From the IMG/VR virus record IMGVR_UViG_3300027970_000019, positions 7,713 to 71,712 of that record: 64,000 nt of DNA; one strand, written 5' to 3'. The position numbers and the translations under genes are program-made. Positions 22,727 through 23,690 of this stretch are shown one piece after another. The notes below the pieces were generated by a model, which worked only from the letters and a program-made list of their open reading frames with translations, was not told the DNA's origin and did not search any database. The stretch is from a virus. The first letter of the stretch is position 1. Each line of letters starts with the position of its first letter.

Positions 22727-23690
22727 AAAGAAAACTCGTAAAATTTTAAAAAAGAATGTTTGAGGGTTCGATTTAATTAACTTTGTTGATATTTATATAT
22801 AAAGGAATATATATGAAAACAAAATACAATAAAGAAGAGTTAATAGAAGCCGTTAAAAAAAGTTATTCAATAGCTGAAACATGTAGAAATCTATCAATTA
22901 GACCTATTGGGGGTAATTACAAAACATTGAATATATTAATAAAAGAATTTAATATTGATATTACTCACTTTACAGGCCAAGGTTGGAATGTTGGATTGAA
23001 ATTTAGACCAATGAAAACTTACTCATTAGAGGATATATTGGTTGAAAATTCACAATACAGGAGTTCCTACGGTTTAAAAAAAAAGTTATTTGAACTTGGG
23101 GTGAAACAAGAAAAATGTGAAATTTGTTTAAATTCATTATGGAATGATAAAAAAATTCCTCTCGAATTGCACCATATTAATGGTGTGAATACAGATAATC
23201 GAATAGAAAACTTACAAATTTTATGTTCTAATTGTCACGCACAAACTGAAAATTTTAGAAAAGGGAAGAGTGCTCTTTCTGAAAAGAGAGAAGTAGAATA
23301 CCGTAAATTCAAGGAAGCCTCAGCTAGTAATGTTGGTGGTAATCTTGAGCCAAGTCTTAGAAATAAGAAAGGTGCAGAGACTAGACACGGTACACCTAAG
23401 TCTAAACCCCCGAAAAGAACTTGTCATCTTTGTGATAATACTCTGACTCGTAATCAAAAAATATATTGTTCAACAGAATGTTATTTTCAAGGCACAAAAG
23501 GAAAAAGACCTCCAGTGTTTGAACTTATTAAAAAATTTGAAGAACTGAAATCTTTTGTCAGTGTTGGAAAATTTTATAATGTTAGTGATAATGCAATAAG
23601 GAAATGGTGTTCTTATTATGGGATTTTAGATATGGTGAAGGTATAGTCCAGACTACAAACCAAAAGGGTGGTGAAAGCCATAGTAGTAAG
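22727..23690 (+). mobile_element. group I intron (IC3-like) in tRNA-Leu anticodon
   Basis: IGS tttgag 22759; AAATTCAAGGAA, AATCTTGAGC, GGTGCAGAGACTA, TATAGTCC core; terminal G 23690. Confidence 0.88.
22813..23646 (+). CDS. intron-encoded HNH homing endonuclease with C-terminal HTH
   Basis: CEIC...LELHHING..TDNRIENLQILCSNCH; VSDNAIRKW. Confidence 0.85.
   Translation: MKTKYNKEELIEAVKKSYSIAETCRNLSIRPIGGNYKTLNILIKEFNIDITHFTGQGWNVGLKFRPMKTYSLEDILVENSQYRSSYGLKKKLFELGVKQEKCEICLNSLWNDKKIPLELHHINGVNTDNRIENLQILCSNCHAQTENFRKGKSALSEKREVEYRKFKEASASNVGGNLEPSLRNKKGAETRHGTPKSKPPKRTCHLCDNTLTRNQKIYCSTECYFQGTKGKRPPVFELIKKFEELKSFVSVGKFYNVSDNAIRKWCSYYGILDMVKV

What the first reader, a model, noticed from the sequence alone, without database searches (positions are those of the whole stretch)
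22727..23690. Group I ribozyme core is itself translated inside its homing endonuclease ORF
Seen: the ORF starts after P1 with an HNH domain, then reads in frame through the core (~23268-23400: P3 TACCGT/ACGGTA, P4, P6, P7 5' strand), giving KSALSEKREVEYRKFKEASASNVGGNLEPSLRNKKGAETRHGTPK. It continues into a Zn-ribbon/HTH domain in the P8 loop and stops at TAG inside the P7 3' strand. Established: ORF creep into intron cores is known but usually partial. Inference: translation from the internal TATTTAT promoter and splicing are mutually exclusive uses of the same bases, which could regulate tRNA-Leu(UAA) supply.
Basis: seen in the sequence. Interest (0 to 1): 0.75.

Follow-up and report, generated by a model that had tools for sequence, protein, structure and literature searches.

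The report
Homing endonuclease gene spanning its ribozyme
A phage tRNA-Leu gene carries a self-splicing group I intron whose own endonuclease gene is read straight through the folded ribozyme core, an extreme and conserved form of a known overlap ("core creep").

Summary
A 277-aa ORF (ATG 22813, TAG 23644-23646) has three parts: an N-terminal helical domain plus HNH nuclease, a 47-aa stretch encoded by the ribozyme, and a Zn-ribbon/HTH domain inserted in the P8 loop. It stops in the P7 3' strand.

One correction: by homology and covariation, the P1 3' strand (guide sequence, 23266-23271) and P2 also lie inside the ORF. So the ORF starts in the P1 loop, not "after P1".

Evidence from relatives with the same layout:
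- Ten loci keep 94.5% of the pairs, with compensatory changes in 34 of 55 pairs.
- All seven of their core lengths are multiples of three.
- Codon-position bias vanishes in the core only.
- AlphaFold gives that stretch low confidence between two confident domains.
- 101 of the 120 listed protein clusters show the layout; none of 50,697 GenBank phage records does.

Other loci at the same tRNA site show every intermediate, from ORF-less introns with a free-standing HNH gene next door to ORFs that stop at the guide sequence.

Overlap of endonuclease ORFs with intron cores is published. This is a new, extreme variant. The internal promoter and the regulation of tRNA-Leu supply remain untested, and splicing was not observed.

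The parts
22693..22726 (+). tRNA-Leu(UAA) 5' exon, ending ...GACUU. U34 is the last exon base.
   Evidence: ARAGORN -i; sequence.
22727..23690 (+). Group I intron, 964 nt. The last base, G23690, is the 3'-terminal (omega) G.
22727..22812 (+). 5' part of the P1 loop, the untranslated leader of the ORF. It holds the 21-nt motif TTGTTGATATTTATATATAAA (22783-22803), an AAGGA Shine-Dalgarno-like site (22801-22805), and a predicted hairpin (22782-22823) that pairs the AUG. An alternative local P1 partner, UUUGAG (22761-22766), occurs in this window only.
   Evidence: MFE -8.2 kcal/mol, z -2.29.
22813..23646 (+). 277-aa homing endonuclease ORF (ATG to TAG).
22831..22947 (+). N-terminal helical (HTH-like) domain, aa 7-45.
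   Evidence: AlphaFold helices 7-16, 20-26 and 33-45, block pLDDT 74-88; weak Pfam HTH_Tnp_1 hit.
23116..23250 (+). HNH nuclease motif, aa 102-146: CxxC...HH...N...CxxCH.
   Evidence: Pfam HNH 20.4 bits (cut-off 21.4) and HNH_3 21.0 bits (cut-off 24.8). Invariant C102, C105, H121, N133, C138, N140, C141 and H142 in 34 sequences. Block pLDDT 87-91.
23266..23271 (+). P1 3' strand (internal guide sequence AAGAGU), inside the ORF (K152-S153).
   Evidence: Homology with ORF-less introns. Intron base +1 pairs with the base before GAGU in 21 of 25 rows. In the window that position is an A.A mismatch, which leaves a 4-bp P1.
23274..23291 (+). P2 hairpin with a GAAA loop (7 bp), translated as LSEKRE.
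   Evidence: 7 of 7 pairs with changes on both sides.
23299..23392 (+). P3 5' strand, J3/4, P4, P5, P6/P6a, J6/7, P7 5' strand (23377, 23379-23383) and P3 3' strand (23387-23392). All of it is translated.
   Evidence: Rfam 39.9 bits; pair counts.
23393..23406 (+). P8 5' strand with CCUAAG, one half of an 11-nt tetraloop-receptor-like motif, translated as PKSK.
   Evidence: The name of the receptor motif is recalled, not taken from a call.
23407..23624 (+). In-frame 218-nt insert in L8 encoding a Zn ribbon (C204, C207, C219, C223) and an HTH, aa 199-271.
   Evidence: Absent from the type a-c relatives. Invariant cysteines. Block pLDDT 77-91. Aa 227-269 are 51% identical to the C-terminus of ORF 24309-25238.
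23625..23649 (+). P8 3' strand (with UAUGG), J8/7 and the P7 3' strand UAGUCC. It is translated as ILDMVKV, and the stop TAG (23644-23646) lies in P7.
23650..23690 (+). P9.0 (23652-23656 with 23683-23687), a small CC/GG hairpin, a P9 hairpin with a GAAA loop (23669-23680) and the omega G. This part is not translated.
23691..23742 (+). tRNA-Leu(UAA) 3' exon (AAAAUCUUG...).

Best explanation
This is a mobile group I intron of the tRNA-Leu(UAA) type, with a compact IC3-like core, in the tRNA array of an uncultured phage.

Its HNH homing endonuclease gene sits in the P1 loop. Instead of stopping there, it reads in frame through nearly the whole ribozyme:
- the P1 3' strand, P2, P3, P4-P6, the P7 5' strand, the P3 3' strand and the P8 5' strand;
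- then a Zn-ribbon/HTH DNA-binding module inserted in L8;
- then the P8 3' strand and J8/7, ending at a UAG that is part of the P7 3' strand.

In all, 163 nt of ribozyme helices and joints are coding. They supply a 47-aa linker between the nuclease and DNA-binding domains, plus the last 7 residues.

Shown here: the RNA fold and the reading frame are both kept by selection. In the core the RNA dictates the sequence and the peptide follows passively.

Inferred:
- The enzyme cuts or nicks intron-less tRNA-Leu(UAA) genes of co-infecting relatives and so drives homing.
- A ribosome crossing the core unfolds the ribozyme. One RNA molecule therefore cannot be spliced and translated at the same time.
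- The conflict is probably settled in time. Either a start-site hairpin delays translation, or the excised intron or a transcript that starts inside the intron serves as the mRNA. This is what is published for T4 td and I-TevI.

The layout is an extreme outcome of 'core creep', not a dedicated regulator of tRNA supply.
For: Intron and exons. Core match. An ORF-less relative in Agrobacterium phage Atu_ph07 matches the full Rfam model (48.9 bits, E 1.2e-11).

The fold is kept while it is coding:
- 10 window-type loci: 94.5% of cells paired and 34 of 55 pairs changed on both sides. Slid controls give 35-42% and 6-11 pairs, and 0 of 500 shuffles reach the observed value.
- 19 loci whose ORF enters the core: 93.5%, 42 of 57 pairs.
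- 28 loci of all types: 93.8%, 44 of 57 pairs.
- Compensatory changes alter residues on both strands. For P3: YR...GT (window), PC...KE (L083), SS...KK (L253).

The frame is kept:
- 10 of 10 window-type loci are open from the guide sequence to P7 or a few codons beyond.
- Their seven different core lengths (99-123 nt) are all 0 mod 3. Where the core is not read, only 2 of 9 are.

The core peptide is passive:
- Pairwise difference at codon positions 1/2/3 is 0.23/0.28/0.28 in the core. It is 0.35/0.24/0.47 in the N-terminal domain and 0.35/0.31/0.46 in the C-terminal domain.
- AlphaFold block pLDDT is 46-57 for aa 151-200, between domains at 77-91; pTM is 0.38.

Spread: 1873 homologues with E <= 1e-3; 101 of the 120 listed carry core peptide, P7 peptide and Zn ribbon in that order.

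P1: intron base +1 pairs with the base before GAGU, about 500-570 nt downstream, in 21 of 25 rows (13 A-U, 7 U-A, 1 G.U).

Graded series at one site.

Start-site hairpins: z <= -2 in 6 of 10 leaders.

Published frame of reference: PMC3073962 and PMC3984707 (passages read).
Against: - No splicing was observed. RNA-library contigs show no exon-exon joint, and only contigs, not raw reads, were available.
- Rfam stays under its gathering score: 39.9 bits for the window core, 48.9 for the relative, against 50. Nothing is found at gathering.
- In the window and its closest relative L162, the homologous P1 has only 4 bp, with A.A at intron positions +1 and +2. This copy may therefore splice poorly. 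The window-only alternative partner UUUGAG is not conserved in L162.
- The Pfam HNH scores are just under their cut-offs.
- The open frame is partly a property of the conserved RNA itself. ORF-less L103 keeps the whole frame open, and L011 is closed only by a TAG at the guide sequence.
- No promoter was found by the sigma-70 scan.
- All window-type loci are metagenomic.
- Cleavage specificity is inferred only.
Confidence: 0.8

Rival explanations
1. Built-in switch. Translation from an intron-internal promoter and splicing compete for the same bases, and the phage uses this to set its tRNA-Leu(UAA) supply.
For: - 163 nt of ribozyme are inside the ORF.
- A 21-nt motif is shared by both endonuclease ORFs of the window: 4 hits at up to 2 mismatches against 0.30 expected.
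- RNA-library contigs of two studies begin at 22745 and 22748, about 20 nt inside the intron. This is a weak hint.
- No other tRNA-Leu(UAA) was found in the window.
Against: - No promoter-like site at the motif.
- The motif may be a shared leader carried along with the endonuclease genes.
- Contig ends are not RNA ends.
- Related phages carry the same intron without an ORF, with a truncated ORF, or with the ORF outside the gene, and these forms are interleaved on the HNH tree. The overlap is therefore dispensable for tRNA-Leu expression.
Confidence: 0.1
2. The ribozyme of this copy is decaying. The endonuclease ORF is what survives, the tRNA-Leu gene is effectively split, and the core similarity is inherited rather than maintained.
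For: - P1 has only 4 bp in the window and in L162.
- Rfam scores are below gathering.
- A GenBank phage, Dulem virus 42, has the HNH ORF between tRNA-Leu halves with no core motifs at all. Loss of the ribozyme therefore does occur.
Against: - Every helix P2-P9 is intact in the window.
- Pairing is kept through compensatory changes across the 10 window-type loci.
- The invariant P7, J8/7, J6/7, omega G and the U.G at the 5' splice site are all present.
- The exons still fold as a tRNA.
Confidence: 0.08
3. The long ORF is an accident of annotation. The real products are a nuclease of about 150 aa and, at most, an unrelated remnant in L8.
For: - Relatives of types a and b make do with 153-183-aa proteins that end at or before the guide sequence.
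- The core frame can be open without being used, as in L103.
Against: - The L8 insert shows coding-type codon bias (position 3 / position 2 ratio 1.48).
- It has four invariant cysteines and confident predicted helices.
- It is homologous to the C-termini of free-standing two-domain HNH proteins.
- It has no start of its own, so it is reachable only through the core.
- Core lengths are all multiples of three in 10 of 10 loci.
Confidence: 0.04

Closest known systems
Phage T4 td intron with I-TevI, the case for which 'core creep' was proposed (Edgell, Chalamcharla & Belfort 2011, PMC3073962; passages read)
   Same: A phage group I intron whose endonuclease ORF sits in a peripheral loop and runs into core helices. 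The start site is sequestered in a hairpin. Translation has to be kept from disturbing folding.
   Different: - There, 20 nt (6 codons) at the 3' end overlap P6a/P7. Here, 163 nt overlap P1' to P8 and P8' to P7'.
- Here there is a functional domain on each side of the core.
- HNH rather than GIY-YIG.
- The host gene is a tRNA, so no exon translation is involved.
Synechocystis PCC 6803 tRNA-fMet intron with I-Ssp6803I (Table 1 of PMC3073962)
   Same: An intron in a tRNA anticodon loop. The ORF is inserted in P1 and overlaps P1/P2.
   Different: - The overlap is 61 nt and confined to P1/P2.
- The nuclease is of the PD-(D/E)XK type.
- There is no second domain beyond the core.
Synechococcus lividus LSU rDNA intron with a LAGLIDADG ORF in P8 (Table 1 of PMC3073962)
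   Same: It has the largest overlap listed there: 81 nt touching P6/P7/P3/P8/P9.0/P9.
   Different: - The ORF enters the core from one loop only.
- The overlap is half the length seen here.
- The core is not a linker between domains.
[quoted passage not shown]
   Same: Ribosomes read through 5' core elements before reaching the endonuclease domain, so translation of core RNA is not new in itself.
   Different: - There the core-encoded part is an N-terminal extension joined to the exon.
- Here the host is a tRNA gene, the ORF is wholly inside the intron, and the core lies between two domains of the enzyme.
[quoted passage not shown]
   Same: The same insertion point (after U34 of the anticodon loop) and a compact core without P5abc.
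   Different: Those introns carry no ORF (recalled). Here the ORF-less forms are phage-borne and have an HNH gene next door.
Collaborative (trans) homing: a free-standing endonuclease plus an ORF-less intron at one site (Hausner, Hafez & Edgell 2014, PMC3984707; passage read)
   Same: Relatives L038, L040, L079, L103, L123 and others have an ORF-less tRNA-Leu intron with a homologous HNH gene about 45-135 nt (mostly 45-90 nt) downstream.
   Different: This is the proposed precursor state. In the window the gene is inside the intron and threaded through it.

Membership tests
Group I self-splicing intron (Rfam RF00028) | Covariance-model score at or above Rfam's gathering score (50 bits) | tested here: inconclusive
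   - Window core alone: 39.9 bits, E 2.9e-9, model positions 47-158 of 253.
- Nothing at gathering on the window or on six relatives.
- ORF-less relative in Atu_ph07: 48.9 bits over the whole model.

The inserts of about 540 and 218 nt split the match. The cut-off is a curators' threshold, not a structural definition.
Group I self-splicing intron | P3-P9 core with the P3/P7 pseudoknot and the P4-P6 and P3-P8 domains, supported by covariation | tested here: met
   93.8% of cells paired and 44 of 57 pairs changed on both sides in 28 sequences. Slid controls give 33-41%. The result is the same in the 10 window-type loci.
Group I self-splicing intron | U.G pair at the 5' splice site in P1, a terminal G at the 3' end, and a conserved G-binding P7 | tested here: met
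   - Exon ACUU pairs with GAGU, with U.G at the splice site, in 24 of 25 rows.
- G23690 precedes the 3' exon.
- Four of the six P7 pairs are invariant in 28 of 28 sequences; the other two vary.

P1 in the window is short (4 bp).
Group I self-splicing intron | Self-splicing with guanosine | not testable with these tools
   RNA-library contigs gave no exon-exon joint. This is neither for nor against.
tRNA-Leu(UAA) intron lineage (IC3-like) | Insertion between U34 and A35 of tRNA-Leu(UAA); a compact core without P5abc; GAAA loops in L2 and L9 with a receptor-like CCUAAG/UAUGG in P8 | tested here: met
   Position. Helices and loops. The subgroup criteria are recalled, not taken from a call.
HNH (beta-beta-alpha-Me) homing endonuclease | HNH motif with its Zn-binding cysteines and catalytic His/Asn | tested here: met
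   - C102, C105, H121, N133, C138, N140, C141 and H142 are invariant in 34 sequences.
- Pfam HNH scores 20.4 bits against a cut-off of 21.4, and HNH_3 scores 21.0 against 24.8, so both are just under their cut-offs.
- Weak fold matches to McrA, Cap5 and Gme HNH, none with E <= 0.001.
HNH homing endonuclease | Site-specific cleavage of the intron-less allele | not testable with these tools
   Inferred from position, and from free-standing homologues beside ORF-less introns at the same site.
'Core creep' overlap (Edgell et al. 2011) | The ORF extends from a loop into core helices, and the length of the extension varies among independent or related introns | tested here: met
   In relatives at the same site the stop lies at the guide sequence, in P2, P6, P7 or P8, in the P7 3' strand, or 7-8 codons beyond it.

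The most novel reading that the evidence does not exclude
The threading is functional, not just tolerated. Because the only path from the nuclease domain to the DNA-binding domain runs through P1'-P8, each transcript is committed to one of two fates. Either it folds and yields tRNA-Leu, or it is translated and yields a full-length endonuclease. The RNA-dictated 47-aa linker may in addition contact its own RNA, in a maturase-like or autoregulatory way. If so, a ribozyme fold would act as a translational gate inside a coding sequence, and the family would give a natural series for measuring the cost of dual RNA/protein coding.
Probability: 0.15. Interest if true: 0.8.

Novelty: new variant of a known kind. 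Interest (0 to 1): 0.6.

Why it matters
Overlap between endonuclease ORFs and group I cores is known, but the examples listed in print are short: 0-81 nt in Table 1 of PMC3073962. The authors themselves warned there that long overlaps might be annotation errors.

Here the overlap is 163 nt and covers nearly every helix of the ribozyme. It is flanked by folded domains on both sides, and it is backed by independent evidence for both constraints: compensatory pairs that change amino acids, indels only in multiples of three, and loss of codon-position bias in the core alone.

The same tRNA site also shows the proposed stages of intron invasion and creep side by side:
- a free-standing gene beside an ORF-less intron;
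- an ORF confined to the P1 loop;
- an ORF that reads through the core;
- an ORF that reads through and has the added L8 domain.

This turns the core-creep and collaborative-homing ideas into something that can be tested on natural sequences and at the bench. It is also a clean natural case of one stretch of sequence serving as structured catalytic RNA and as protein linker.

A practical point follows. Standard tools miss these genes. Rfam at gathering and ARAGORN without the intron option found nothing, and the related tRNA-Leu intron of Agrobacterium phage Atu_ph07 is not among the features annotated at that locus in its GenBank record.

Tried and rejected
- Rfam at gathering, on the whole window and on six relatives, gave no group I hit. 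So did the E-value mode on 22600-25400. Only short stretches gave hits.
- A DUF805-RNA match at 23636-23696 (22.6 bits against 51.1) is the P7'-P9 region and was dismissed.
I used loci from the search for related loci instead.
- The search of solved structures with the profile of A1 found nothing at E <= 0.01. Foldseek against the PDB gave no match at E <= 0.001.
- Read laying used contigs only.
  - No contig joins 22726 to 23691.
  - Contigs from RNA libraries cover 22745-23641 (X15), 22748-23104 (X16) and 23264-23413 (X18). DNA carry-over cannot be excluded.
  - The one joint seen (23403 to 23628, with 2 other letters between) comes from a relative that lacks the L8 insert. It is not a splice.
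- The sigma-70 and terminator scan gave no site at the leader.
- I considered a local P1 (CUU|AAA with UUUGAG 22761-22766). I set it aside as the family's P1 because L162 lacks it. It may still matter in this phage.
- I tried to order the events with an HNH tree. Types a-d are interleaved: the window type needs at least 3 changes on well-supported branches, and the root is unknown. The direction therefore stays open, whether gain of the L8 module after creep or repeated loss from a two-domain ancestor.
- In one search the 5' splice site of L244 was misplaced by my script (749 nt against ARAGORN's 993), and three rows (L164, L040, L103) gave no site. They are counted as misses or left out, as stated.
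- Loci dropped before the pair counts were L247 and L037 (ends not found by my patterns), L243 (a duplicate of L002), and L242 and L246 (same contigs as L002 and L083).
- The strict motif pattern gave 76 of 120; the relaxed one gave 101 of 120.
- Literature:
  - Searches found no paper describing an HNH ORF threaded through a tRNA-Leu intron core.
  - Subscription journals and supplements were not searchable.
  - tblastn against 50,697 GenBank phage records found 226 records, all under 60% identity. None of the rows I inspected carries the core peptide.
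Full report
**Setting.** The window is part of a 71.7-kb viral record estimated at 24% complete. It has about 30% G+C, an array of 16 tRNA genes between 14.3 and 30 kb and a tmRNA. Ordinary tRNA and Rfam scans show nothing at 22727-23690.

**The observation.**
- The 5' exon ends ...GACUU and the 3' exon begins AAAAUCUUG, so the anticodon loop is CUUAAAA.
- Rfam's Intron_gpI model matches 23297-23392 (39.9 bits, E 2.9e-9, model positions 47-158) when that stretch alone is searched.
- The stop TAG (23644-23646) is the start of UAGUCC, the P7 3' strand.

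**Anatomy by homology.**

Relatives at the same tRNA site were collected from viral, metagenome and genome contigs and classified. They fall into four types:
- (a) ORF-less introns of 185-230 nt, with a homologous HNH gene about 45-135 nt (mostly 45-90 nt) downstream of the tRNA (L038, L040, L079, L103, L123 and others).
- (b) Introns of about 690-780 nt whose 157-184-aa HNH ORF stops at or just after the guide sequence.
- (c) Introns of the same size whose ORF reads on into the core. Four of these (L085, L086, L090, L254) stop at the same UAG in the P7 3' strand.
- (d) The window type, 922-1014 nt, with an extra in-frame insert of roughly 220-250 nt (218 nt in the window) in L8.

In an alignment of 28 of these (A3), the ORF-less introns read 5' splice site, short loop, UUGAGUGC, P2 with a GAAA loop, GUAGAAU, P3 and onward. 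In types b-d the same UUGAGUGC-P2-GUAGAAU block comes directly after the HNH domain, 500-570 nt from the splice site.

Intron base +1 pairs with the base before GAGU in 21 of 25 rows: 13 A-U, 7 U-A and 1 G.U. The misses are the window, L162, L248, and L244, whose splice site my script misplaced. Three further rows gave no site.

So the ORF lies in the P1 loop, and the guide sequence and P2 are translated.

Window coordinates of all helices are in the parts list. The ribozyme bases inside the ORF are 23266-23406 and 23625-23646, which makes 163 nt.

**Is the ribozyme maintained?**

| Set | Cells paired | Pairs changed on both sides | Slid controls |
|---|---|---|---|
| 28 sequences, all types | 93.8% | 44 of 57 | 33-41%, 13-24 pairs |
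| 19 sequences whose ORF enters the core | 93.5% | 42 of 57 | 35-42%, 9-16 pairs |
| 10 window-type loci | 94.5% | 34 of 55 | 35-42%, 6-11 pairs |

- No shuffle of 500 reached the observed share of paired cells or covariation score in any of the three sets.
- P7, J8/7, J6/7 and the terminal G are nearly invariant.
- P2 and P9 carry GAAA loops, and P8 carries CCUAAG/UAUGG. I recall this as the 11-nt tetraloop receptor.
- The stem that closes the L8 insert also covaries: GUCUAAA/UUUAGAU in the window becomes UCAGUU/AACUGA in L002 and GCUG/CAGC in L245.

**Is the ORF maintained?**
- All 10 window-type loci are open from the guide sequence to the P7 3' strand. Eight stop there, and L002 and L252 run 7-8 codons further.
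- Their cores have seven different lengths (99, 102, 108, 111, 117, 120 and 123 nt), all multiples of three. Of the nine type a and b introns, only two are.
- The domains on either side show the usual coding pattern of pairwise difference by codon position: 0.35/0.24/0.47 (N-terminal) and 0.35/0.31/0.46 (C-terminal).
- The core shows none: 0.23/0.28/0.28.
- Compensatory RNA changes drag the amino acids along. For P3 the pairs are YR with GT in the window, PC with KE in L083 and SS with KK in L253.
- AlphaFold, run with 34 sequences, gives block pLDDT of 74-91 for most of aa 1-150, with a low-confidence loop near aa 51-70 (60-63). It gives 46-57 for aa 151-200 and 77-91 for aa 201-277, with pTM 0.38. 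That is two domains joined by a poorly defined linker.
- The HNH residues and the four cysteines of the Zn ribbon are invariant.
- The last 43 aa of the HTH module are 51% identical to the C-terminus of an unrelated DUF559-type nuclease ORF 700 nt downstream. It is therefore a shared DNA-binding module.

**A caveat on the frame.** ORF-less L103 keeps the whole frame open, and L011 is closed only by a TAG at the guide sequence. Part of the openness is thus intrinsic to the conserved RNA sequence. That is precisely what would let a lost stop extend the ORF in one step.

**How common is it?**
- The protein has 1873 homologues at E <= 1e-3 among 2412 candidates. The 120 listed are 49-99% identical, nearly all over the full length.
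- 101 of those 120 carry the guide-to-P4 peptide, the P7 peptide and a downstream Zn ribbon in that order. A stricter pattern gives 76.
- Two window-type loci sit in contigs binned with bacteria, a Candidatus Onthovivens MAG and an Agathobacter rectalis assembly.
- tblastn against 50,697 GenBank phage records finds 226 records, all under 60% identity. The full-length matches are free-standing two-domain HNH genes.
- Atu_ph07 has an ORF-less intron of this family, with no tRNA or intron feature among those annotated at that locus.

**Evolution.**
- Free-standing short forms end ...YRGKNKK. Type b forms end a few codons later, at the guide sequence. Types c and d continue ...LSALSEKR.... This is the pattern that core creep predicts (PMC3073962, passages read).
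- Type a matches the state proposed as a precursor in collaborative homing (PMC3984707, passage read).
- On an HNH-domain tree the four types are interleaved. Examples are L253 with L010 (95/89), L002 with L006 (97/82), and L103 inside a type c clade (98/80). The window type needs at least three changes.
- The root is unknown. I therefore cannot say whether the L8 module was added after creep or lost repeatedly.

**Mechanism.**
- Shown here: one sequence serves as both a ribozyme and a linker.
- Inferred: a ribosome reading 23266-23646 must melt P1-P8, so folding and translation exclude each other on one molecule.
- The start site is predicted to be paired in the window (z -2.29), and z is -2 or lower in 6 of 10 leaders. 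This is as published for I-TevI.
- The whole ORF lies inside the intron, so the excised intron could serve as the mRNA.
- The 21-nt motif upstream of both endonuclease ORFs could be a promoter. The sigma-70 scan does not support one.
- RNA-library contigs cover the ORF and core in three runs from two studies, and two begin near 22745. They are contigs, they show no exon junction, and they may include DNA.

**Comparison with what is known.** Overlap of the ORF with the core is established (Fig. 2b of PMC3984707; Table 1 of PMC3073962, 0-81 nt). Mitochondrial ORFs fused to upstream exons are read through 5' core elements (PMC8393795, passages read). Three things are new here:
- The extent: nearly every helix, 163 nt.
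- The core acts as an interdomain linker, with a second domain in L8.
- The layout is conserved across many lineages, with direct evidence for both constraints and a graded series of forms at one site.

**Verdict.**
- I class the finding as a new variant of a known kind.
- Interest is 0.6.

Noticed in passing
window 24309-25238 (+): A free-standing nuclease ORF (Pfam DUF559, E 9e-14, plus a C2H2 finger) lies between a tRNA-like gene and tRNA-Glu. Its C-terminal HTH is 51% identical to that of the intron ORF. It is preceded by the same 21-nt motif (24309-24329) as the intron ORF (22783-22803).
   Followed up: partly
window 23975-24069 and 24151-24244 (+): Two tRNA-like genes of 94-95 nt match the tRNA model only with 36-37 extra nt in place of the anticodon arm (36.9 and 44.2 bits). 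ARAGORN gives odd anticodons for them.
   Followed up: no
window 38146-38527 (-): A tmRNA gene (83.1 bits, full-length model) in a phage fragment.
   Followed up: no
L332 (Dulem virus 42, PP511876.1) about 798-1415: The two halves of a tRNA-Leu(UAA) gene flank an HNH ORF, annotated as 'NinG recombination protein'. No group I core motifs lie between them. The endonuclease gene appears to have outlived the ribozyme.
   Followed up: partly
L333 (Agrobacterium phage Atu_ph07, MF403008.1) 653-1014: tRNA-Leu(UAA) with a 278-nt ORF-less group I intron of the same family (Rfam 48.9 bits). The features annotated at this locus are all hypothetical-protein CDSs, with no tRNA or intron feature.
   Followed up: partly
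L103 556-856 and 943-1413: An ORF-less 215-nt intron still has the full 'core peptide' frame open up to the P7 UAG. A 156-aa HNH gene lies about 90 nt downstream, and its protein groups inside the clade of intron-resident, read-through forms. This suggests a recent move of the gene into or out of the intron.
   Followed up: partly
window 23403-23628, run X15: A metatranscriptome contig joins 23403 to 23628 with two other letters between. This is a co-occurring relative of the intron that lacks the L8 insert, not a splice.
   Followed up: no
L254 1-1509: A Bacteroidales-MAG locus has an intact read-through core, but the N-terminal part of its HNH ORF is broken: only 83 codons precede the guide sequence, after a 276-nt leader that still resembles the coding sequence. 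It looks like a decaying endonuclease gene.
   Followed up: no
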